Shown: positions 371-46,268 of the stretch, in pieces
How positions within the stretch are numbered: position 1 is the first letter of the stretch
Layout: the number at the start of each line of letters is the position of its first letter
Source: Mesonia oceanica
Lineage (GTDB): Bacteria > Bacteroidota > Bacteroidia > Flavobacteriales > Flavobacteriaceae
Length of the DNA: 64,000 nt
Assembly (NCBI RefSeq): GCF_902499555.1
Contig: NZ_CABVMM010000009.1
Coordinates: 93,178 to 157,177, forward strand
Reading direction: 5' to 3'
The notes under the pieces: model-generated
The model's input: the letters and a program-made list of their open reading frames with translations, nothing else
Database searches by the model: none
Told to the model about the DNA's origin: nothing
Translations under genes and position numbers: made by a program

Positions 371-480
371 TCGTCATCCTGAACTTGTTTAATTACGTTG
401 AATCTTTGATTTCAGGATCACATCTTTAAGCTTCATTTATCTATTGATGATGAGATTCTGTGTCAAGCACGGAATGACGG
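371..480. repeat. REP/MITE-like palindromic element (family copy: cgtcatcctgaac...ttcaggatcacatc plus gatgagattctgtgtcaagcacggaatgacg)
   Basis: Inverted repeat with the same core words (CGTCA(T/C)CC..GAAC / GATGAGA..CAAG..GGAATGACG) seen at 6 other loci in this window. Confidence 0.6.
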
Positions 481-16612: not shown

Positions 16613-16700
16613 AACCGTTACCCTGAACCTGCCCGTCCGGTAGGCGGGCTTGATTCAGGGTCTCATCCTTACTATTTTTGTTTTTCAATGTAGAATGACG
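16613..16700. repeat. REP/MITE-like palindromic element (ccctgaacctgcccgtccggtaggcgggcttgattcagggtctcatcc ... agaatgacg)
   Basis: Same family as 371-480, 19219-19449, 19797-19955, 21849-21910, 22551-22628, 33185-33286. Confidence 0.6.
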
Positions 16701-16745
16701 AAAACACCCATTATTATAAATCACAGATAATCAAAAAGATTAATT

Positions 16746-17510
16746 TTACATTCTAATCTGCTTGATAAAACCATCAATATGCTGGGTTCCGTTTTCAGTT
16801 AAGTGTTTGATAAATGCTGAACCAATGATCGCTCCTTTGGCAAATTTTGTTGCTTTCTGAAAAGTTTCAGCATTGCTGATTCCAAAACCAACAATTTGTG
16901 GATGTTGAAGTTGCATTTGGTCGATTCTTTCAAAATAAGCTTGTTGTGCTTCACCAAAACTATTTGTACTTCCCGTAATACTTGCTGAACTTACCATATA
17001 GATAAAGCCTTCGGAAACTTGATCAATTTGTTGAATTCGCTCTTCAGTGGTTTGTGGCGTAATTAAAAATATATTTTGTAAACCATATTGCTGAAAAATT
17101 TCTTGATATTCTTCGGTATAAACTTCTAAGGGAAGATCAGGAATGATGAGTCCGTCAATGCCTATTTCCTCACATTTTTGGCAGAACTTCTCAATTCCAT
17201 ATTGAAGCATCGGATTAAAATATCCCATGATAATCAAGGGAATGGAAACCGATTTTCGAATGTCTTTCAATTGCTCAAAAAGTTTTTCGCTAGTCATTCC
17301 ATTTTTTAAAGCTTGGGTAGAACTTGCTTGTATGGTTGGGCCATCGGCAAGCGGATCGCTAAAGGGTAAACCAATTTCTACTACATCTACCCCCGATTTT
17401 TCTAATTGCTCAAGAATGGTTTTGGTATCGTCGATTTGAGGGTAGCCAGCGGTGAAATAGATAGAAAGTAACTTTTTGTTTTCTCGTAATTTATGGGTGA
17501 TGCGATTCAT
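16746..17510 (-). CDS. trpA: Tryptophan synthase alpha chain
   Basis: 254 aa, last gene of trpEGDCFBA cluster; TrpA-like fold motifs. Confidence 0.85.
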   Translation of the reverse strand: MNRITHKLRENKKLLSIYFTAGYPQIDDTKTILEQLEKSGVDVVEIGLPFSDPLADGPTIQASSTQALKNGMTSEKLFEQLKDIRKSVSIPLIIMGYFNPMLQYGIEKFCQKCEEIGIDGLIIPDLPLEVYTEEYQEIFQQYGLQNIFLITPQTTEERIQQIDQVSEGFIYMVSSASITGSTNSFGEAQQAYFERIDQMQLQHPQIVGFGISNAETFQKATKFAKGAIIGSAFIKHLTENGTQHIDGFIKQIRM

Positions 17511-17524
17511 TATTTTTAGTTTTG

Positions 17525-17580
17525 TTTACAGTTTACAGTTTACAGTTTACAGTTTACAGTTTACAGTTTACAGTTTACAG
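17525..17580. repeat. Perfect heptanucleotide microsatellite (TTTACAG)x8 (on minus strand CTGTAAA), flanked by degenerate units tttgttt / tttgtga
   Basis: Direct reading of sequence between trpB stop (17693) and trpA start (17510). Confidence 0.9.
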
Positions 17581-17692
17581 TTTGTGATTTTTTTGCGCTA
17601 GGGATAGTAGCGGCATCCTTTTTTGTTGTACTTCGACAAGCTCATTATGACAACAAAAAAGATATAGCGAATAGCCCGCTCAGGCGCCCAAT

Positions 17693-18880
17693 TTATAAAT
17701 CAAAATAATTTATATAAGTTTCTAGGTCTTTATCACCACGTCCGGATAAGTTAATGACAACTACCTCATCGGGTTGAAATTTTTTCTGTCCTAATGCCGC
17801 TAAAGCGTGAGCACTTTCAATTGCTGGGATAATCCCTTCTAATTTAGTAAGCTCAGCTCCGGCTTGCATGGCTTGATCATCGGTAACCGATAAAAATTCT
17901 GCTCGTTTACTGCTAAATAAATGGGCGTGCATTGGGCCAACACCAGGATAATCCAGTCCCGCAGAAATAGAATAAGGTTCGGTAATCTGACCGTCTTTGC
18001 TTTGCATTAATAGCGTTTTACTTCCGTGGATAATTCCGTTATTCCCTAATTGAGAAGTTGCGGCACTTTCTCCACTGTTAATTCCTTTTCCGGCAGCTTC
18101 TACGGCGATGAGGTTGACCTCTTTTTCATCTAAATAATGATAAAAAGCCCCGGCAGCATTGCTACCACCACCTACACAAGCAATAATGTGATCGGGTTGG
18201 GTTCGATTCTCTTTTTCTTGTAGTTGCAATTTAATTTCTTGTGAAATAATGCTTTGCAAACGTGCCACCATATCCGGATAAGGGTGCGGTCCAACCACCG
18301 AACCAATAATATAATGGGTTTCTTCAGGATGATTAATCCAATCTCGAATCGCGTCGTTGGTAGCATCTTTTAAGGTTTTACTCCCTGAGGTTGATGGGAT
18401 CACTTCTGCGCCTAGCATTTTCATACGAGCTACATTGGGCGCTTGGCGTTTCATATCTATTTCACCCATATACACAAAACACGGCATTCCCATGAGTGCG
18501 CAAACCGTAGCGGTGGCTACTCCGTGTTGTCCGGCCCCAGTTTCAGCAATAATTCTTTTTTTACCTAAGCGTTTAGCTAACAGAATTTGACCAACTGTAT
18601 TGTTCACTTTGTGAGCACCGGTATGGCAAAGGTCTTCGCGTTTTAAATAGATGTTGGTGTTGTATTTTTCACTTAACCGTTTGGCAAAGTAGAGTGGAGT
18701 AGGGCGACCTACATAATCTCGTAACAATTGCTGATATTCTTCTTGAAATGATTGCTCGCTAAGAATAGCTAAGTAGTTTTCTTTTAACTGTGCAATATTT
18801 GGGTAGAGCATTTCAGGAATAAAAGCACCGCCGTATTCACCGTAATAGCCTTGTTCATTTATATGATTTGTTGTACTCAT
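17693..18880 (-). CDS. trpB: Tryptophan synthase beta chain (PLP-dependent)
   Basis: 395 aa; conserved TrpB motifs (HTGAHK, GGGSNA). Confidence 0.9.
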   Translation of the reverse strand: MSTTNHINEQGYYGEYGGAFIPEMLYPNIAQLKENYLAILSEQSFQEEYQQLLRDYVGRPTPLYFAKRLSEKYNTNIYLKREDLCHTGAHKVNNTVGQILLAKRLGKKRIIAETGAGQHGVATATVCALMGMPCFVYMGEIDMKRQAPNVARMKMLGAEVIPSTSGSKTLKDATNDAIRDWINHPEETHYIIGSVVGPHPYPDMVARLQSIISQEIKLQLQEKENRTQPDHIIACVGGGSNAAGAFYHYLDEKEVNLIAVEAAGKGINSGESAATSQLGNNGIIHGSKTLLMQSKDGQITEPYSISAGLDYPGVGPMHAHLFSSKRAEFLSVTDDQAMQAGAELTKLEGIIPAIESAHALAALGQKKFQPDEVVVINLSGRGDKDLETYINYFDL

Positions 18881-19785
18881 AGCAATTGAGTTTTAAAATT
18901 TTTTAAATCGTCTATATTTTTTTTGCCGGGTTGGGTTTCAAACTTACTGTTTACATCTAGGGCATAAAGCGGTAAATTAAATTCTTGAAACGCCTTAATT
19001 TTTTCGACTTCTTCTAAACCAATACCTCCACTTAAGAAAAATGGTTTTTGAAAAGGGTAATTTTTTAAGACTTGCCAATCGAAAGTGAAACCATTTCCTC
19101 CAGGATTTTTTCCTTTGGTGTCAAATAAAAAGTAATCTACCACCGGAAGATATGTTTCCAATTCCTGAAAATTGAATTGATCTTGAATAGAAAATGCTTT
19201 GATGATTTCAATGGAATTTGATTTGGTTTGATGTGATGCTGTCCCTCGACTCCGCTCGGGATAATTTTCAATAAGTTGATTTTGTTTTTTTAGAGCATCA
19301 CCCTGAATATGTTTCAGGGGCTCATTCTTATTCTCATTTTTGATGTGATGCTGAATCGAGTTCAGCATGACGTCGGGAAATTCGTCATCCCGGACCTGCC
19401 CGTCCGGCAGGCGGGCTTGATCCGGGATCTCATCTCGCTTTTTATTACTGAATAAATTTCTTAATTGTTGGCAATACTCCACATTTTCGTTCCCGTGAAG
19501 TTGAATGGCCTGTAAATTGTAATCTTCAACTTTTTGTTGAATAAAACTTGGTTCTGCGTTCACAAAAACACCTGTTTTTTTTATGGATGAATGAATATCA
19601 GGAATATTTTCATTCATAAACCGAGGTGATTTTTCATAGAAAATAAAACCCATATAGTCGGGTTGGAGTTGGGTTAACTCCAAAATATTTTCTTCATATT
19701 TCATTCCGCAGACTTTAAGCCCCAACCTAGCCTTCCCCCAAGGGGAAGGAAATGGAACATTTGTATTTGGCTTATTATTTTTCAT
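18877..19785 (-). CDS. trpF: Phosphoribosylanthranilate isomerase carrying an in-frame ~85-codon insertion derived from REP/MITE elements
   Basis: 302 aa vs ~210 typical; N-half (LKVCGM...IQLHGNE) and C-half (VDYFLFDTKG...GGNGFTFDW...LSGGI) match TrpF; central segment aa ~112-196 is encoded by palindromic repeat copies (19219-19449). Confidence 0.7.
   Translation of the reverse strand: MKNNKPNTNVPFPSPWGKARLGLKVCGMKYEENILELTQLQPDYMGFIFYEKSPRFMNENIPDIHSSIKKTGVFVNAEPSFIQQKVEDYNLQAIQLHGNENVEYCQQLRNLFSNKKRDEIPDQARLPDGQVRDDEFPDVMLNSIQHHIKNENKNEPLKHIQGDALKKQNQLIENYPERSRGTASHQTKSNSIEIIKAFSIQDQFNFQELETYLPVVDYFLFDTKGKNPGGNGFTFDWQVLKNYPFQKPFFLSGGIGLEEVEKIKAFQEFNLPLYALDVNSKFETQPGKKNIDDLKNFKTQLL
19219..19449. 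repeat. Cluster of REP/MITE-like elements lying inside the trpF reading frame
   Basis: Contains tgatgtgatgctgtccctcgactccgctcgg, tgatgtgatgctgaatcgagttcagcatgacg and cgtcatcccggacctgcccgtccggcaggcgggcttgatccgggatctcatc, all matching intergenic copies elsewhere. Confidence 0.65.
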
Positions 19786-19796
19786 ATTTGGTTCTT

Positions 19797-19955
19797 TTCG
19801 TCATCCCAGACCTGCCTGTCCGTCAGGCGAACTTGATCTGGGGTCTCATCTTGATTTGCTCTTTTGATGTGATGCTGTCCCTCGACTCCGCTCGGGGTGA
19901 CTAAGATCTTCAATTAGACGCTTTATCTCGTCTTCCGTATCTGACACGGAATCTC
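19797..19955. repeat. REP/MITE-like elements in trpC-trpF intergenic region (3 units)
   Basis: tcgtcatcccagacctgcctgtccgtcaggcgaacttgatctggggtctcatc; gatgtgatgctgtccctcgactccgctcggggtgac; cgtcttccgtatctgacacggaatctcatc. Confidence 0.65.
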
Positions 19956-19958
19956 ATC

Positions 19959-20753
19959 TTACTTTTTCCGTTCAATTTCTTCAATAAAATTTTTAGCACT
20001 TTCCCCGGGATTTTCAGTTTTCATGAACGTTTCTCCTATCAAAAAACCTCGGTAACCATATTCTCTTAATTCTAAAGTATCGGAAGTAGATTGGAGTCCG
20101 CTTTCAGAAATTTTCACCATTTCTTCAGGAATTAAGGAAGATAGTTGTTTACTGATTTCCGTAGAAACTTCAAATGTTTTTAGGTTCCGGTTGTTTACTC
20201 CAATGAGTTGAACTTGTGCCTGAAGGTTTGCTTGTAATTCTTCTGTGTTGTGAACTTCTAATAAAACTTCCATCCCTAATTCATTAGCGAGTAAAGCGAA
20301 ATTTTTTATTTGTTGCGGACTCAAAATGGCAGCAATTAATAGGATTACATCGGCGCCGTTAGCTTTGGCCTCTAGCATTTGATACTCATCGATGATGAAA
20401 TCTTTTCGCAGCAAAGGGAATTGTACACTCGATCTAGCCAGTTGTAAATCTTCTAAAGAACCTCCGAAAAAACTATTATCGGTTAAAACAGAACTTCCGC
20501 ATGCTCCCGCTTTTTGATAGCTTACAAGCACTTCATTCACATATAAATTTTGATTGATGTTGGGCTTAGAAGGAGATCTTCGTTTGTGCTCTGCTATAAT
20601 TCCGCTTTCACTTTTCTTTAAAGCTTGGCTTAACGAAAAACATGCTCGGTTAAAAAGTGGCGATTGCTCTACATATTTTATGGGAAGCAATTCTTTTTTT
20701 AGCTGAATTTCTGTAAGCTTATGCTTGACGATGGTATCTAAAATAGTAGCCAT
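19959..20753 (-). CDS. trpC: Indole-3-glycerol phosphate synthase
   Basis: 264 aa; IGPS motifs (IAEHKRRSPS, LLIAAIL). Confidence 0.85.
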   Translation of the reverse strand: MATILDTIVKHKLTEIQLKKELLPIKYVEQSPLFNRACFSLSQALKKSESGIIAEHKRRSPSKPNINQNLYVNEVLVSYQKAGACGSSVLTDNSFFGGSLEDLQLARSSVQFPLLRKDFIIDEYQMLEAKANGADVILLIAAILSPQQIKNFALLANELGMEVLLEVHNTEELQANLQAQVQLIGVNNRNLKTFEVSTEISKQLSSLIPEEMVKISESGLQSTSDTLELREYGYRGFLIGETFMKTENPGESAKNFIEEIERKK

Positions 20754-21745
20754 TATGCACTTAATTTTTGGAGTGTTTTTAATTTTTCTAAGGCTTTACC
20801 ACTTTTTAGTGATTCTTCTGCCAAGGCTAAGCCTTCTGAAATACTACAGTTTTTAGCGGTTGAAATGGCTAGGGCAGCATTGGCACAAACCACTTGATGT
20901 TGAGCTTTAGAACCTTGACCGTTTAAAATTTTCTGAAAAATCTTTACCGCTTCAGGAATCGTTTCTCCTCCATAAATTTCTTCGGCTTTAATTTTTTCAG
21001 CTTTAAAATCTTCGGGAGTTAAAACCGTATTTATTTGATTACCTACAATTTTGGTATCTCCGGTGAGGGAAACTTCATCGTAACCATCAAGGGCGTGTAC
21101 AATTTTAAAATTAGTATCGGTATGTTGATAGAGATAACTGTAAATTCTCGCTAATTCCAAACTAAAAACTCCTACTATTTGGTTGGGCGGTTTTGCAGGG
21201 TTTACCATGGGACCTAACATATTGAAGAACGTTTTTACCGCTAAATCTTTTCGTATCGGAGCGACAAACTTCATAGCCGGATGAAAAAGTGGTGCGTGTA
21301 GCACGCATATGCCTGCTTTTTCTAAACAGGTTTCTAAAAACGCCTGATCGTTAGAAAATTTGACTCCAAGATTTTCCAGAACATTACTACTTCCGCTGAC
21401 CGAAGAAACACTGTAATTTCCGTGTTTGGTCACCTTAACTCCAGCTCCGGCAGTGATGAACGATGCTAGGGTAGATATGTTAAACGTGTTTTTGCCATCG
21501 CCGCCCGTTCCACATAAATCGATGGGATGATGATCTGCTAAATTGAGGGGAACCGCAAGTTCTAATAAAGCATCACGAAAACCTGCTAACTCTTCAATGG
21601 TAATGCTACGCATCATATAAACGGTAAGAAAACTAGCAACCTGACTATGATTTGCTTTGCCTTCAGAAATATTGATAAGCGCTTGTTTAGCTTCCGCTTT
21701 GCTTAAAATTTCGTGATGTGTTAATCTGTTGAGTAATTGTTTCAT
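20753..21745 (-). CDS. trpD: Anthranilate phosphoribosyltransferase
   Basis: 330 aa; GTGGDG and KHGN motifs. Confidence 0.85.
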   Translation of the reverse strand: MKQLLNRLTHHEILSKAEAKQALINISEGKANHSQVASFLTVYMMRSITIEELAGFRDALLELAVPLNLADHHPIDLCGTGGDGKNTFNISTLASFITAGAGVKVTKHGNYSVSSVSGSSNVLENLGVKFSNDQAFLETCLEKAGICVLHAPLFHPAMKFVAPIRKDLAVKTFFNMLGPMVNPAKPPNQIVGVFSLELARIYSYLYQHTDTNFKIVHALDGYDEVSLTGDTKIVGNQINTVLTPEDFKAEKIKAEEIYGGETIPEAVKIFQKILNGQGSKAQHQVVCANAALAISTAKNCSISEGLALAEESLKSGKALEKLKTLQKLSA

Positions 21746-21848
21746 TTTTACCTATTTTCCTTCTAAAAAAGAGTTTTAGATGATGAATTTATTTTAAAAG
21801 GACGTTTTTCATTTATTCGATTCCTGTGAATTTTCAATCAGCGTGTTC

Positions 21849-21910
21849 TCATCCTTCTGATGTGACCCTGAATCAAGCCCGCCTGCCGGACGGGCAGGTT
21901 CAGGGTGACG
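21849..21910. repeat. REP/MITE-like element (inverse orientation: gtgaccctgaatcaagcccgcctgccggacgggcaggttcagggtgacg)
   Basis: Reverse complement of the 19385-19440 unit. Confidence 0.6.
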
Positions 21911-21918
21911 ATAGGGAA

Positions 21919-22512
21919 TTAAGCTGAGACCGTTTCTTCATTTTTAACTGGGATTTCTATCCAATTTTTTAAGATTTCTTTTCCTTGTGGCGTGAGTACC
22001 GATTCCGGATGAAATTGGACACCATACACCTGAAAATCTCGGTGACGCAATGACATGATTTGTCCGTTTTCATCATAAGAAGTTGGGATTAATGAGTGGG
22101 GTAAGTCTTGAACTACCCAAGAATGGTAGCGGCCTACTTCTAATTTCTGCGGAAGATTTTTAAAGAGCGTCTCCTCATGGTCAATAATTTGAATTGGGGT
22201 AGCAACTCCATGAAAAACCTGATTTAAATTGTTGAGTTTTCCTCCAAAAACTTCACCTATGGCTTGTTGCCCTAAGCAAACGCCTAAAATACTTTTAGTA
22301 GGCGCATAAGTACTTACAATCTTGTTCAGTAATCCTGCTTCTGAGGGAATGCCAGGTCCCGGGGAAAGTAAGATTCTATCGAAGACTTCAATTTCATCTA
22401 AATCAATTTCGTTATTTCTTCTTACGATGACTTCACAATCGAGATCTTCTAAGTAGTGAACCAAGTTGTATACAAAACTATCGTAATTATCGATGACTAA
22501 TATCTTTTTCAT
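21919..22512 (-). CDS. trpG: Anthranilate synthase component II (glutamine amidotransferase)
   Basis: 197 aa class-I GATase, catalytic GVCLGQQ and HPES motifs. Confidence 0.85.
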   Translation of the reverse strand: MKKILVIDNYDSFVYNLVHYLEDLDCEVIVRRNNEIDLDEIEVFDRILLSPGPGIPSEAGLLNKIVSTYAPTKSILGVCLGQQAIGEVFGGKLNNLNQVFHGVATPIQIIDHEETLFKNLPQKLEVGRYHSWVVQDLPHSLIPTSYDENGQIMSLRHRDFQVYGVQFHPESVLTPQGKEILKNWIEIPVKNEETVSA

Positions 22513-22550
22513 TTTTATGAGATTTCATATTCTAATTAATGAACTCTTTA

Positions 22551-22628
22551 GTCATGCTGATTTTATTTCAGCATCTCATCATCAATTTTACAAGTTGGAT
22601 GAGAACCTGAATCAAGTTCAGGTTGACG
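22551..22628. repeat. REP/MITE-like elements in trpE-trpG intergenic region
   Basis: gtcatgctgattttatttcagcatctcatc and gatgagaacctgaatcaagttcaggttgacg. Confidence 0.6.
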
Positions 22629-24060: not shown

Positions 24061-24088
24061 AAAAAAAGGCTTGTCGTGATGACAAGCC
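24061..24088 (-). terminator. Attenuator terminator hairpin GGCTTGTC-ATCAC-GACAAGCC followed by T7 on minus strand, 28 nt upstream of trpE ATG
   Basis: Perfect 8-bp GC-containing stem plus U-tract; sits between a WWW leader ORF and trpE. Confidence 0.6.
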
Positions 24089-24124
24089 TTTTTGGATATG
24101 GTAAATATACAAAGCGGTGTTAGC

Positions 24125-24181
24125 TCACGACGTTTTTCGTAAGTTATTCCACCACCAAGTATGTACAGTTAAAATTTTCAT
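24125..24181 (-). CDS. trpL: trp operon leader peptide (18 aa: MKILTVHTWWWNNLRKTS) with three consecutive Trp codons
   Basis: Reverse-strand ATG 24181..24179, TGA 24127..24125; TGG TGG TGG at 24157..24149; followed by terminator hairpin; classic ribosome-mediated attenuation layout. Confidence 0.55.
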   Translation of the reverse strand: MKILTVHTWWWNNLRKTS

Positions 24182-24225
24182 TAGTTCAAAGATAAGTAGG
24201 AAATTGAAATTTCCAAATCTTTTAG

Positions 24226-33086: not shown

Positions 33087-33184
33087 TGATCATAGATTTA
33101 GGATTGTCATCTGCTGTCAGTTTGAGACTTTCAGCGAAGCTCAATACAGGCTTAGTCAAGAACTATATAGCACCTAAAATTGAG

Positions 33185-33286
33185 CGTTACCCTGAACTTG
33201 TTTTAGGGGCTCATTCAGATGATTTCAAAATGAAGATGTGATGCTGAGTCAAGCTTGCCTGCCGGGTGGTCAGGCTCAGCATGACG
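33185..33286. repeat. REP/MITE-like elements (cgttaccctgaacttgttttaggggctcattcagatgatttc; gatgtgatgctgagtcaagcttgcctgccgggtggtcaggctcagcatgacg)
   Basis: Same word family as the trp-operon repeats. Confidence 0.6.
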
Positions 33287-41000: not shown

Positions 41001-41038
41001 TGTTTATTGTGTTAAATGTTAGGGTAATATATCTTTAA

Positions 41039-41866
41039 GTTGTGAATACCTTTCCAACTAAAGGCTGTTACAACGGTTGCAAAACCATTGAAAAGGAGTT
41101 GCCTGTTGTGAATACCTTTCCAACTAAAGGCTGTTACAACATGGTAGGGAAACATAACAAAGACGAAAGTGTTGTGAATACCTTTCCAACTAAAGGCTGT
41201 TACAACATTCAATCAAACAATTGTATTATAAAATTAGTTGTGAATACCTTTCCAACTAAAGGCTGTTACAACCAACAATGTATGGGCGATGAATGCCGCC
41301 TTGTTGTGAATACCTTTCCAACTAAAGGCTGTTACAACCAGATCGCTAGACAAAAGATTAAAAGACGGGTTGTGAATACCTTTCCAACTAAAGGCTGTTA
41401 CAACATGGCGTTCAAGACAATTGGAGACAAATAGGTTGTGAATACCTTTCAAACTAAAGGCTGTTACAACTTGCGGGATATGGTTATGATGAGATCGCTC
41501 GTTGTGAATACCTTTCAAACTAAAGGCTGTTACAACATTACCAGATGTTTTAACCCCTGTTACTATGTTGTGAATACCTTTCCAACTAAAGGCTGTTACA
41601 ACTTGTGACGATTGTATAACAAAAGAATTCTAGTTGTGAATACCTTTCCAACTAAAGGCTGTTACAACCAATACACTCCTCACAAGGCTTTTCGGTATGT
41701 TGTGAATACCTTTCCAACTAAAGGCTGTTACAACAAAAAATTTGGTATCCCTATTGAATACGATGTTGTGAATACCTTTCCAACTAAAGGCTGTTACAAC
41801 CATCGATCTTTCTTCACAAACAAGCGACTTGTTGTGAATACCTTTCCAACTAAAGGCTGTTACAAC
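41039..41866 (-). CRISPR. Type VI-B CRISPR array: 13 repeats x 36 nt (GTTGTGAATACCTTTCCAACTAAAGGCTGTTACAAC on +; transcribed form likely GTTGTAACAGCCTTTAGTTGGAAAGGTATTCACAAC), 12 spacers x 30 nt
   Basis: Repeats at 41039,41105,41171,41237,41303,41369,41435,41501,41567,41633,41699,41765,41831 (each +35); repeats 7 and 8 carry the same C->A change (TTTCAAACT); 36/30 nt geometry is diagnostic of Cas13b arrays; minus-strand orientation inferred from similarity of the reverse-complement to the published B. zoohelcum DR. Confidence 0.95.
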
Positions 41867-41961
41867 CTATTTTATATAAGGTATTGTTAATTAATGTGTT
41901 TATTGAAAAACCTTCAGATAAAATGATGTCAAAGAGCTTTACAAAGCTAAAATCATAATGC

Positions 41962-45865: not shown

Positions 45866-45881
45866 TGTAGAGTGGAGTCGG

Positions 45882-46268
45882 GGAGATTCGAACTCCCGTC
45901 CAAACAAGCAATTCAATAGCTTTCTACACGCTTATTTTTCACTTCAATTTTCGAGAAAGATCTGGCAGAAAACCTCCCAATCTTTCCTTAACCTTTAAGA
46001 TTTCAATAGCCCTTAAAGGTATCGAGCTACCTAGATTTACTTTATCGGTGCCTCTAGTTGGAACGCCATAAATCAAGGCTTTCCAGAGACATCTTAGCCC
46101 TATGCCTTGCATAGGTTAAGGTAATCTTACTTTAGTTCAGATTACGCAGCTAAGGCGTAATTATTTTCGCCGTTTAAAAAAGTTTGAAATATGAGATTTA
46201 CGAGCTGTATCCCAGCGCTCGACGTGCTTACTACTCAATTAGACTCGCTGTCAAAACCAGTCGACCCC
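45882..46268 (-). ncRNA. ssrA: tmRNA (SsrA), tag peptide (G)ENNYALAA
   Basis: 5' GGGGTCGACTGGTTTTGACAG...; internal ORF GGC GAA AAT AAT TAC GCC TTA GCT GCG TAA (46172..46143) = GENNYALAA*; 3' end GGACGGGAGTTCGAATCTCCCCGACTCCAC matches canonical tmRNA T-arm/acceptor. Confidence 0.9.

What the first reader, a model, noticed from the sequence alone, without database searches (positions are those of the whole stretch)
19198..19452. In-frame insertion of palindromic REP/MITE-like repeats inside trpF (about 85 extra codons without a stop)
The TrpF ORF is 302 aa. Residues ~1-111 and ~197-302 align with the N- and C-halves of phosphoribosylanthranilate isomerase. The middle is encoded by three copies of the same palindromic repeat words that occur in the intergenic regions of this operon (tgatgtgatgctg..., cgtcatcccggacctgcccgtccggcaggcgggcttgatccgggatctcatc). 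Yet about 255 nt of repeat DNA is read through without a stop or frameshift. In-frame palindromic-element insertions inside essential genes are best known from Rickettsia (RPEs). Seeing the same phenomenon in a Flavobacteriia biosynthetic gene is unusual, and it raises the question of whether TrpF remains active with an extra ~85-aa surface loop.
Basis: seen in the sequence. Interest (0 to 1): 0.7.

Follow-up and report, generated by a model that had tools for sequence, protein, structure and literature searches.

The report
Hairpin repeats translated inside trpF
A tryptophan-synthesis gene (trpF) of a marine Mesonia bacterium carries four copies of a small selfish hairpin repeat that are read through as a 77-residue floppy loop; this is a clear new example, in a new bacterial group, of something already known from Rickettsia and other bacteria.

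Summary
trpF (18877-19785, minus strand, 302 aa) has a 231-nt, 77-codon insert (about 19216-19446). The insert consists of four hairpin repeat units plus linkers. One unit carries a nested 21-nt hairpin in its loop.

The units fit the published "CGTC-tagged REP" super-family (Di Nocera et al. 2013), which includes Rickettsia RPE-4 and RPE-6 and was reported in Gramella forsetii. Their consensus is CGTC-A[TC]NNNG[AG]A-CTTGA-T[CT]CNNN[AG]T-C[TA]CATC.

The same 302-aa protein is annotated in Mesonia oceanica and was seen on 80 contigs, so it is not an assembly artefact. The insert lies in the alpha4-beta5 loop, at the junction of the two half-barrels on the non-catalytic face, and is predicted to be disordered. 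The catalytic Cys and Asp are kept, and the barrel-coding flanks have dN/dS of 0.05-0.24, so the enzyme is probably active.

Strains 97-98% identical across the operon carry different inserts (266 and 238 aa), and M. aestuariivivens has none. A more distant species has the same four-unit layout at 90% identity.

The same hairpin also lies in frame in LeuRS, MurB, PriA, a FolC-like ligase and other genes on metagenomic contigs. This is a new member of a known kind and of moderate interest.

The parts
18877..19785 (-). trpF ORF (302 aa as annotated). The true start may be the TTG at 19725.
   Evidence: The protein is 100% identical to P0121, annotated as Mesonia oceanica PRAI.
19216..19446 (-). 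In-frame insert of 231 nt, residues 114-190. It lies between helix alpha4 (residues 102-119) and strand beta5 (193-200).
19383..19434 (+). REP unit A: CGTC ATCCCGGA [loop] TCCGGGAT CTCATC. It is read in reverse as DEIPDQ..VRDD.
   Evidence: (DNA fold -15.1 kcal/mol, z -2.8).
19396..19416 (+). Nested 21-nt hairpin CTGCCCGTCCGGCAGGCGGGC in the loop of unit A (the ARLPDGQ stretch). It is absent from the orthologous unit in strain R32.
19341..19374 (-). REP unit D: CGTC ATGCTGAA CTCGA TTCAGCAT CACATC, read as DVMLNSIQHHI.
   Evidence: z -4.6; 0 mismatches.
19296..19326 (+). REP unit C: CATC ACCCTGAA TATGT TTCAGGGG CTCATT, read in reverse as EPLKHIQGDA. With D it forms a tail-to-tail dimer.
   Evidence: D16; z -4.0.
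19227..19262 (-). REP unit B: a GAGCGGAGTCGA-core hairpin plus the 3' half of a D-type unit. It is read as PERSRGTASHQTK. The hairpin is weak in this copy.
   Evidence: (D12, 100% identical to 19863-19896).
19263..19295 (.). AT-rich linker inside the insert (LKKQNQLIENY). It is shared only with strain R32.
19799..19850 (+). Intergenic REP A' in the trpC-trpF spacer, with an inner hairpin. It is the closest copy of unit A.
19863..19902 (-). Intergenic REP B' in the trpC-trpF spacer. It is the closest copy of unit B.
19929..19958 (+). Intergenic REP F (CGTC TTCCGT ATCTGAC ACGGAA TCTCATC), which abuts the trpC stop codon.
21860..21912 (-). REP with inner hairpin in the trpG-trpD spacer.
22551..22627 (.). 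Tail-to-tail REP dimer in the trpE-trpG spacer.
16614..16666 (+). REP with inner hairpin downstream of trpA.
33182..33285 (.). Two intergenic REPs outside the operon: a C-like unit and a long-loop unit.
373..478 (.). Two intergenic REPs near the start of the window.
19708..19710 (-). Codon for Cys26, equivalent to the catalytic Cys7 of T. maritima TrpF.
19120..19122 (-). Codon for Asp222, equivalent to the catalytic Asp126 of T. maritima TrpF.
24081..24201 (-). Bacteroid-trp leader RNA upstream of trpE. It shows that the operon is a regulated trp operon.

Best explanation
trpF of this Mesonia oceanica-type genome has acquired a cluster of four CGTC-tagged REP hairpin units, plus linkers and one nested 21-nt hairpin. 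The cluster sits in the DNA that encodes the alpha4-beta5 loop.

Shown:
- The units belong to a dispersed, mostly intergenic hairpin family whose stems covary.
- Each unit lies in an orientation and frame that has no stop codon. For canonical short units, 3 or 4 of the 6 orientation/frame combinations are stop-free.
- The insert length is a multiple of three.
- The barrel-coding flanks are under strong purifying selection, and the catalytic residues are intact.
- The insert is polymorphic among near-identical strains.

Inferred:
- The mRNA is translated straight through. This gives an active PRAI with a hydrophilic, disordered 77-residue loop (GRAVY -1.55) at the junction of the two half-barrels, on the face opposite the active site. 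A long linker is expected to be tolerated there.
- The insert is a by-product of REP proliferation filtered by selection. It is not an adaptation.
- How the units arrive is unknown. No transposase has been linked to CGTC REPs. The closest copies of units A and B lie 416 and 636 nt away in the trpC-trpF spacer. This suggests local copying, or recombination and gene conversion between REP clusters, followed by exchange of the insert-bearing segment between lineages.
For: - Repeat identity and hairpins.
- Stem covariation in 27 distinct units: 95% of cells paired, and 0 of 500 shuffles reached the observed score.
- Match to the published CGTC REP definition, and the same encoded peptides as in published tables: WTPDQVRGD and RHSELVSGS there, against EIPDQVRDD and RHAELVSAS here.
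- Position of the insert. Barrel pLDDT is above 90 and the insert is below 50. Foldseek gives target-normalised TM-scores of 0.78-0.86 to TrpF structures.
- dN/dS of the flanks is 0.05-0.24.
- Cys26 and Asp222 are conserved across 63 homologues: Asp222 is invariant and Cys26 is present in at least 90%.
- The 302-aa form was seen on 80 contigs, including an isolate genome.
- An empty site exists in M. aestuariivivens, and relatives carry different mosaics.
- Strains 97-98% identical across the operon have 238-aa and 266-aa alleles.
- Open and closed frames of the units.
- No terminator-like site on the sense strand inside the insert.
- The same hairpin is in frame in LeuRS (twice), MurB, PriA, a FolC-like ligase, 3-hydroxyacyl-CoA dehydrogenase, a sugar dehydratase and an Eco57I-type methylase.
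Against: - There is no direct evidence that the long protein is made or is active.
- Whether the genome has a second trpF could not be checked.
- The insert is much better conserved between the window and strain R32 (dS 0.064) than the synonymous sites of the flanks (dS about 1). This is not what a decaying neutral passenger would show. It needs recombination, gene conversion or DNA-level constraint to explain it.
- Unit B folds poorly in this copy.
- The mobility mechanism is entirely inferred.
Confidence: 0.85

Rival explanations
1. The insert is retained because it has a function. It could be an RNA structure inside the polycistronic trp mRNA that affects processing, stability or ribosome pausing between trpC/F and trpB/A. 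Or it could be a surface loop with a role of its own.
For: - The insert is more conserved than synonymous sites between two species.
- As RNA the region folds much better than shuffled versions (z -4.6).
- REPs sit at nearly every gene junction of this operon.
- Different Mesonia lineages all keep some REP DNA at this site.
Against: - M. aestuariivivens has no insert.
- Near-identical strains carry quite different inserts.
- dN/dS in the insert is about 1.3, so there is no protein-level constraint.
- The loop is predicted to be disordered.
- The same hairpins occur in unrelated genes.
- High conservation of REP cores is a general property of REP families.
Confidence: 0.1
2. The cluster arose by local copying rather than by transposition of single units. 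The mechanism would be template switching or ectopic gene conversion from the REP cluster in the adjacent trpC-trpF spacer. The cluster then moved between lineages by homologous recombination. This rival concerns only the step of origin.
For: - The closest copies of units A and B are 416 and 636 nt away in the spacer. B is identical over 34 of 34 nt.
- The tail-to-tail linker is shared between the intragenic and spacer clusters in several genomes.
- The phylogeny of the insert disagrees with that of the flanks, and there is a divergence step at the insert: the N flank is 92% identical and the C flank 99%.
- No transposase is known for CGTC REPs.
Against: - Units C and D have no close copy in the spacer. 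The closest copy of C is 14 kb away.
- The nested 21-nt hairpin sits in loops of REPs with at least six different stems, which looks like targeted insertion.
- The family is dispersed over many unrelated loci and contigs.
Confidence: 0.35
3. The gene is a pseudogene or an assembly or sequencing artefact, and the cell gets PRAI activity from elsewhere.
For: No supporting result was found. This reading stays open only because expression was not tested and the rest of the genome was not available.
Against: - The identical protein occurs on 80 contigs from independent assemblies and in an isolate genome.
- Flank dN/dS is 0.05-0.24.
- The catalytic residues and phosphate-binding motifs are intact.
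- The trpF and trpB ORFs overlap at 18877-18880, which suggests translational coupling.
- The operon is otherwise complete and has a trp leader.
Confidence: 0.03
4. The extra segment is an ancestral linker or domain of flavobacterial TrpF and is unrelated to the intergenic repeats.
For: Many Flavobacteriaceae TrpF proteins have 15-45 extra residues at this loop.
Against: - The segment is made of recognisable REP units that have identical copies in intergenic DNA.
- Its content differs between close relatives, and the site is empty in M. aestuariivivens.
- Extra segments in other genera also contain REP-type peptides, for example HAELVSAS in Aestuariibaculum.
Confidence: 0.02

Closest known systems
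CGTC-tagged REPs (families CGTC-1 and CGTC-2; Di Nocera, De Gregorio and Rocco 2013, PMC3733652)
   Same: - An unpaired CGTC tag, an 8-bp stem that starts with AT, a 5-nt loop and a short tail.
- Mostly intergenic, lying between co-directional genes, and often in dimers.
- Some copies lie inside ORFs and encode peptides such as WTPDQVRGD and RHSELVSGS, which match EIPDQVRDD and RHAELVSAS here.
- The family was reported in Bacteroidetes (Gramella forsetii).
- No associated transposase is known.
   Different: - The published table of intragenic elements, as far as the text held here shows, has no Bacteroidetes entry.
- The tail here is CTCATC or CACATC rather than the published CCA consensus.
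- Tail-to-tail dimers are common here, whereas head-to-head dimers predominate in the paper.
- A nested 21-nt hairpin in the loop is not mentioned in the parts of that paper read here.
Rickettsia palindromic elements (RPEs) inserted in frame in protein genes (Ogata et al. 2000 and later work, as summarised in PMC3733652 and PMC10969869)
   Same: - Palindromic repeats are translated as extra surface segments of otherwise functional housekeeping proteins.
- RPE-4 and RPE-6 are classed as CGTC-4 and CGTC-1.
- Clusters encoding 43-82 residues are reported for R. conorii.
   Different: - The classic RPE-1 type is about 100-150 bp and is specific to Rickettsia, an obligate intracellular bacterium with a decaying genome. 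The host here is a free-living marine flavobacterium.
- The units here are about 31 nt.
- The insert varies between closely related strains and is well conserved at the DNA level.
REPINs and GTAG REPs mobilised by RAYT transposases
   Same: Short hairpins with an unpaired tetranucleotide tag. They occur as dimers and are dispersed in intergenic DNA.
   Different: The tag is CGTC, not GTAG. No RAYT gene flanked by these units was seen, and the whole genome was not available to check.
Fragmentation, permutation and half-barrel experiments on (beta-alpha)8 barrels such as PRAI and HisF (cited from memory: Kirschner, Sterner and Hocker laboratories)
   Same: The natural insert sits at the alpha4-beta5 junction between the two four-unit halves. 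This is on the non-catalytic face, where engineered cuts and linkers are tolerated.
   Different: Those are laboratory constructs. Here the linker is 77 residues of repeat-encoded sequence that arose in nature.

Membership tests
CGTC-tagged REP super-family | Unpaired CGTC (or TGTC/CCTC) tetranucleotide at one end of the hairpin | tested here: met
   A, D, A' and F have CGTC. C has CATC in the window and CGTC in its R32 orthologue.
CGTC-tagged REP super-family | Stem of 8-9 bp whose first two pairs are A-T/T-A | tested here: met
   ATGCTGAA/TTCAGCAT and ATCCCGGA/TCCGGGAT are 8-bp stems. C starts with AC. Covariation was tested.
CGTC-tagged REP super-family | Loop of 4-5 nt | tested here: met
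   The loops are CTTGA, CTCGA and TATGT. Five window units have the loop enlarged by a nested 21-nt hairpin.
CGTC-tagged REP super-family | Short unpaired tail (published consensus CCA) | tested here: inconclusive
   A conserved tail is present, but it reads CTCATC or CACATC.
CGTC-tagged REP super-family | Many dispersed copies, mainly intergenic | tested here: met
   There are about 16 units in the 64-kb window, and 12 of them are intergenic.
Rickettsia palindromic elements (RPE-1 type) | Element of about 100-150 bp belonging to the Rickettsia sequence families | tested here: not met
   The units are about 31 nt, or 52 nt with the inner hairpin, and the host is Mesonia.
Rickettsia palindromic elements (RPE-1 type) | In-frame insertion in an ORF that stays intact | tested here: met
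MITE | Terminal inverted repeats of 15-30 bp with target-site duplication; 70-300 bp in length | tested here: not met
   The units are single short hairpins. No TIR-bounded element and no duplication were seen at the insert borders.
REPIN/RAYT system | GTAG tag and a RAYT gene flanked by the repeats | tested here: not met
   The tag is CGTC. The presence of a RAYT gene could not be tested without the whole genome.
Phosphoribosylanthranilate isomerase (TrpF, PF00697) | PRAI profile match and a (beta-alpha)8 fold | tested here: met
   Pfam E-value 9e-33. The AlphaFold barrel has pLDDT above 90. Foldseek matches TrpF structures with target-normalised TM-scores of 0.78-0.86.
Phosphoribosylanthranilate isomerase (TrpF, PF00697) | Catalytic Cys (Tm Cys7) and Asp (Tm Asp126) | tested here: met
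   Cys26 and Asp222 align to them. Among 63 homologues Asp222 is invariant and Cys26 is present in at least 90%.
Phosphoribosylanthranilate isomerase (TrpF, PF00697) | Enzyme activity of the long form | not testable with these tools
   This needs complementation or an enzyme assay.

The most novel reading that the evidence does not exclude
CGTC REPs are currently active in the Mesonia oceanica population and more widely in low-GC Bacteroidota-like genomes. Under this reading, three things would hold:
- They routinely add residues to housekeeping proteins at permissive loops.
- A 21-nt hairpin acts as a second-order element that inserts specifically into the C^TTGA loop of the REP hairpin, a parasite of a parasite.
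- Multi-unit clusters such as the one in trpF are exchanged between species as cassettes, which would explain why the insert is far younger than its host gene.

The trpF locus has at least three alleles at about 98% nucleotide identity across the operon, and trpF has a selectable phenotype. It would therefore be a natural system for finding the unknown mobility mechanism of CGTC REPs.
Probability: 0.35. Interest if true: 0.65.

Novelty: new member of a known kind. Interest (0 to 1): 0.45.

Why it matters
In-frame REP and RPE insertions are one of the few known ways in which selfish DNA directly lengthens bacterial proteins. They have been studied mainly in Rickettsia.

This locus shows the same process in a free-living marine flavobacterium. 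It has an unusually large cluster of four units (77 residues). Empty, short and long alleles occur among close relatives. The host gene is under clear purifying selection, and the insertion point is structurally informative because it is the half-barrel junction of a TIM barrel.

The locus also points to two open problems. First, it is not known how CGTC REPs move, since no transposase has been linked to them. Second, it is not clear why their intragenic copies stay nearly identical across species while the host gene's synonymous sites are close to saturation.

For genome annotation, the results explain the odd extra segments and N-terminal extensions seen in many Bacteroidota proteins, with peptides such as DEILNQVQxD, RHxELDSxSH and VMLNLIQHLI.

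Tried and rejected
- Searching the 78-aa insert peptide in the 5.8-billion-protein word index found nothing, because no candidate shared three words with it. phmmer against 1.84 billion representatives gave no hit at E <= 0.001. Short biased peptides cannot be traced this way. The DNA pattern scan did the job instead.
- megablast of the locus against plasmids found no match.
- The REP pattern had no match in 2.9 million viral contigs, so there is no sign that phages carry it.
- The genome-contig scan did not return the window's own genome. The best hit was strain R32 at 78%. The organism was instead identified through the protein cluster, as Mesonia oceanica.
- My first loose hairpin scan was no better than Markov controls (33 hits against a mean of 23). 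Only the version that also required the tag and tail was informative.
- Literature searches for REP-derived peptide strings and for Mesonia repeats found nothing relevant.
- MITE and RAYT/REPIN membership were considered and rejected. There are no TIRs or target-site duplications, and the tag is wrong.
- The idea that the units are stop-free in all frames was rejected. Only 3 or 4 of the 6 frames are open, and only the used frame of the whole insert is open.
Full report
**Observation**

The window carries a complete trp operon on the minus strand. The gene order is trpE, trpG, trpD, trpC, trpF, trpB, trpA, spanning 24035 down to 16746. A Bacteroid-trp leader RNA lies upstream at 24081-24201.

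The trpF ORF (18877-19785) is 302 aa. Pfam PRAI matches it in two separate stretches. T. maritima TrpF aligns to residues 23-109 and 192-297.

Compared with the 207-aa TrpF of Mesonia aestuariivivens, the extra segment is residues about 114-190. That is window 19216-19446, or 231 nt.

The sense frame of the insert has no stop codon. The other five frames have 3-8 stops each. The insert is 45% GC, in a gene that is 33% GC elsewhere.

**Anatomy of the insert**

The insert is a mosaic of four hairpin units plus AT-rich linkers. On the plus strand they run in this order:
- **B** (19227-19262, tag on the minus strand).
- **A 33-nt AT-rich linker** (19263-19295).
- **C** (19296-19326, tag on the plus strand).
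- **D** (19341-19374, tag on the minus strand).
- **A** (19383-19434, tag on the plus strand).

C and D form a tail-to-tail pair. D and A form a head-to-head pair.

Units A, C and D fold as DNA hairpins much better than shuffled sequence, with z-scores of -2.8 to -4.6. Unit B is degenerate in this copy.

Unit A carries a 21-nt inner hairpin (19396-19416) in its loop. The orthologous unit in strain R32 lacks exactly these 21 nt.

The same inner hairpin sits at the same loop position (C^TTGA) in REPs with at least six different outer stems, in the window and in other loci.

The closest copies of units A and B lie only 416 and 636 nt away, in the trpC-trpF spacer. B is identical there over 34 of 34 nt. 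The tail-to-tail linker is also shared between the intragenic and spacer clusters.

**What the repeats are**

All units fit one scheme: CGTC, A[TC]NNNG[AG]A, CTTGA, T[CT]CNNN[AG]T, C[TA]CATC. This pattern is expected 0.03 times by chance in the window. It occurs 4 times with at most 2 mismatches.

The scheme matches the published definition of CGTC-tagged REPs. That definition is an unpaired CGTC tag, an 8-9 bp stem beginning with AT, a 4-5 nt loop and a short tail (Di Nocera et al. 2013, PMC3733652).

According to that paper:
- The super-family is found in five phyla, including Bacteroidetes (Gramella forsetii).
- R. conorii RPE-4 and RPE-6 belong to it.
- REP clusters encoding 43-82 residues occur inside ORFs of Thauera and R. 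conorii.
- No dedicated transposase is known.

Its supplementary table lists intragenic peptides such as WTPDQVRGD (CGTC-1) and RHSELVSGS (CGTC-2). These are the same reading modes as EIPDQVRDD and RHAELVSAS seen here. In the supplementary text held here, G. forsetii occurs only in the file that lists the genomes and not in the table of intragenic elements.

I took 27 distinct 31-nt units from a metagenome scan in which the three central stem positions were left free. In these, 95% of cells form standard pairs, and 5 of the 8 pairs change on both sides. None of 500 shuffles reached the observed covariation score.

**Comparative picture**

The 302-aa protein is identical to the NCBI entry "phosphoribosylanthranilate isomerase [Mesonia]" / Mesonia oceanica. 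It was seen on 80 contigs. This rules out an assembly artefact.

Relatives carry different mosaics at the same loop:

| Relative | Length or state | Content of the loop |
|---|---|---|
| Strain R32 | Same layout as the window | A-D-C-B, without the inner hairpin |
| M. mobilis | Insert present | A, plus a D-type hairpin interrupted by B (nested) |
| M. phycicola | Insert present | E + A + D, where E is a B-like hairpin in the other orientation, read as RPFDSAQGE |
| Metagenomic allele P0002 | 266 aa | A different mosaic, starting with an E unit |
| Metagenomic allele P0003 | 238 aa | A single E unit |
| Metagenomic allele P0004 | 281 aa | A different mosaic |
| M. aestuariivivens | 207 aa | Empty site |

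The contigs that encode the 238-aa and 266-aa alleles are 97-98% identical to the window across the operon. The alignment breaks exactly at the insert. The insert is therefore polymorphic within a group of strains that are 97-98% identical across the operon.

R32 is only 82-85% identical to the window in the flanks, yet it shares the four-unit layout at 90% identity.

Some other genera also have REP-type peptides in this loop, for example HAELVSAS in Aestuariibaculum. The loop is thus a recurrent hot spot.

**Consequences for the protein**

The insert lies between helix alpha4 (residues 102-119) and strand beta5 (193-200) of the AlphaFold model. The barrel is confident (pLDDT above 90). Residues about 120-190 have pLDDT below 50. 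The model matches solved TrpF structures with target-normalised TM-scores of 0.78-0.86.

From established knowledge of TIM barrels, alpha-beta loops lie on the face opposite the active site. The alpha4-beta5 junction separates the two half-barrels.

Cys26 and Asp222 align with the catalytic Cys7 and Asp126 of the T. maritima enzyme. Across 63 homologues Asp222 is invariant and Cys26 is present in at least 90%.

The barrel-coding flanks have dN/dS of 0.05-0.24. This holds between two lineages that both carry the insert, where it is 0.065-0.083.

The insert peptide is strongly hydrophilic, with GRAVY -1.55 against -0.40 for the core. No terminator-like site lies on the sense strand within the insert.

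I therefore infer that the long protein is made and is active. This was not tested.

**An unexplained point**

Between the window and R32, synonymous divergence is 0.95-1.27 in the flanks but only 0.064 in the 53 alignable insert codons. dN/dS in the insert is about 1.3.

The REP cores D and B have no differences in 68 nt. By my count from the alignment, the linkers differ by about 16%.

Together with the different inserts in near-identical strains, this means that the insert and its host gene have different histories. The possible causes are cassette exchange by recombination, gene conversion from other REP copies, or constraint at the DNA level. I cannot separate these with the data at hand.

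**Generality**

Their GC content ranges from 28% to 67%.

About one hit in ten lies deep inside a long ORF. Pfam confirmed real host genes with domains on both sides of the unit:
- Leucyl-tRNA synthetase, twice. The two have different units at the same site.
- A FolC-like Mur ligase.
- An Eco57I-type methyltransferase.
- 3-hydroxyacyl-CoA dehydrogenase.
- A dTDP-glucose dehydratase-type enzyme.
- MurB.
- PriA.

The taxonomic origin of these contigs was not determined.

All of these cases use one of the three reading modes that are stop-free in every canonical unit tested. Some stems, such as ATCCCGGA, have a fourth open frame.

The pattern has no match in 2.9 million viral contigs.

**Mechanism and rivals**

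The best-supported account is that REP proliferation delivers units everywhere. Selection then removes every insertion in an essential gene except those that are in frame, free of stops, hydrophilic and placed in a permissive loop. Existing REPs attract or seed further units, through nesting, dimers and local copying. The result is a growing and variable cluster.

The way the units arrive is unknown. It could be transposition in trans or local template switching and gene conversion. I give local copying plus recombination about 0.35 for this locus.

An adaptive role for the loop or for the RNA structure is possible but weakly supported (0.1). The pseudogene or artefact reading and the ancestral-domain reading are effectively excluded.

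**Novelty**

The kind is known: in-frame REP and RPE insertions in ORFs, and CGTC REPs in Flavobacteriaceae. The following were not found in the literature I could search:
- The host group for the intragenic form.
- A four-unit, 77-residue cluster with a nested hairpin.
- Variation of the insert between near-identical strains.
- Placement at the half-barrel junction of a TIM barrel.
- The mismatch between the age of the insert and that of the gene.

I rate it a new member of a known kind, with moderate interest.

Noticed in passing
window 17524-17593 and 17590-17685: A (GTTTACA)n heptamer tandem of about 9 copies lies in the trpB-trpA spacer. Directly after it is a Flavo-1 RNA motif hit (RF01705, 59.7 bits against a gathering score of 42). 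The hit is on the plus strand, antisense to the trp operon. The alignments to the near-identical contigs L026 and L024 leave this spacer uncovered (window 17517-17693).
   Followed up: partly
window 19731-19749: The hairpin CCTTCCCCCAAGGGGAAGG lies inside the annotated N-terminal extension of trpF (PFPSPWGKA). TrpF of other genera has similar extensions (SPLGK, SPSGRAGVG). The real start may be the TTG at 19725, which would make this another repeat or hairpin in the 5' region rather than coding sequence.
   Followed up: partly
window 16614-22627: About 11 of the roughly 16 REP units in the 64-kb window lie within the trp operon, at nearly every gene junction as well as inside trpF. The reason for this concentration is unknown.
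   Followed up: partly
window 19396-19416, 16629-16649, 19812-19832, 21877-21897, about 33250-33272; also L032, L078, L115: A 21-nt hairpin (CTGCCCGTCCGGCAGGCGGGC) is always nested at the same position in the loop of CGTC REPs that have different outer stems. It may be a second-order mobile hairpin.
   Followed up: partly
L113 740-4048 (metagenomic LeuRS): This leucyl-tRNA synthetase has a DUF559 endonuclease-like domain inserted at residues 321-424, in addition to a REP-derived insert. L039 LeuRS has different REP units at the same REP site.
   Followed up: no
window 41038-41868: There are twelve tandem copies of a 66-nt unit, 74-84% identical to the reference copy. They presumably encode a repeat-domain protein.
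   Followed up: no
window 45870-46268: A tmRNA gene lies on the minus strand (135 bits).
   Followed up: no
L001 4819-4894, L002 4744-4818, L003 1489-1563: In R32 and M. mobilis a head-to-head REP dimer separates trpF from trpB. In the window the two ORFs overlap by 4 nt. So the REP content of the operon junctions also differs between species.
   Followed up: no
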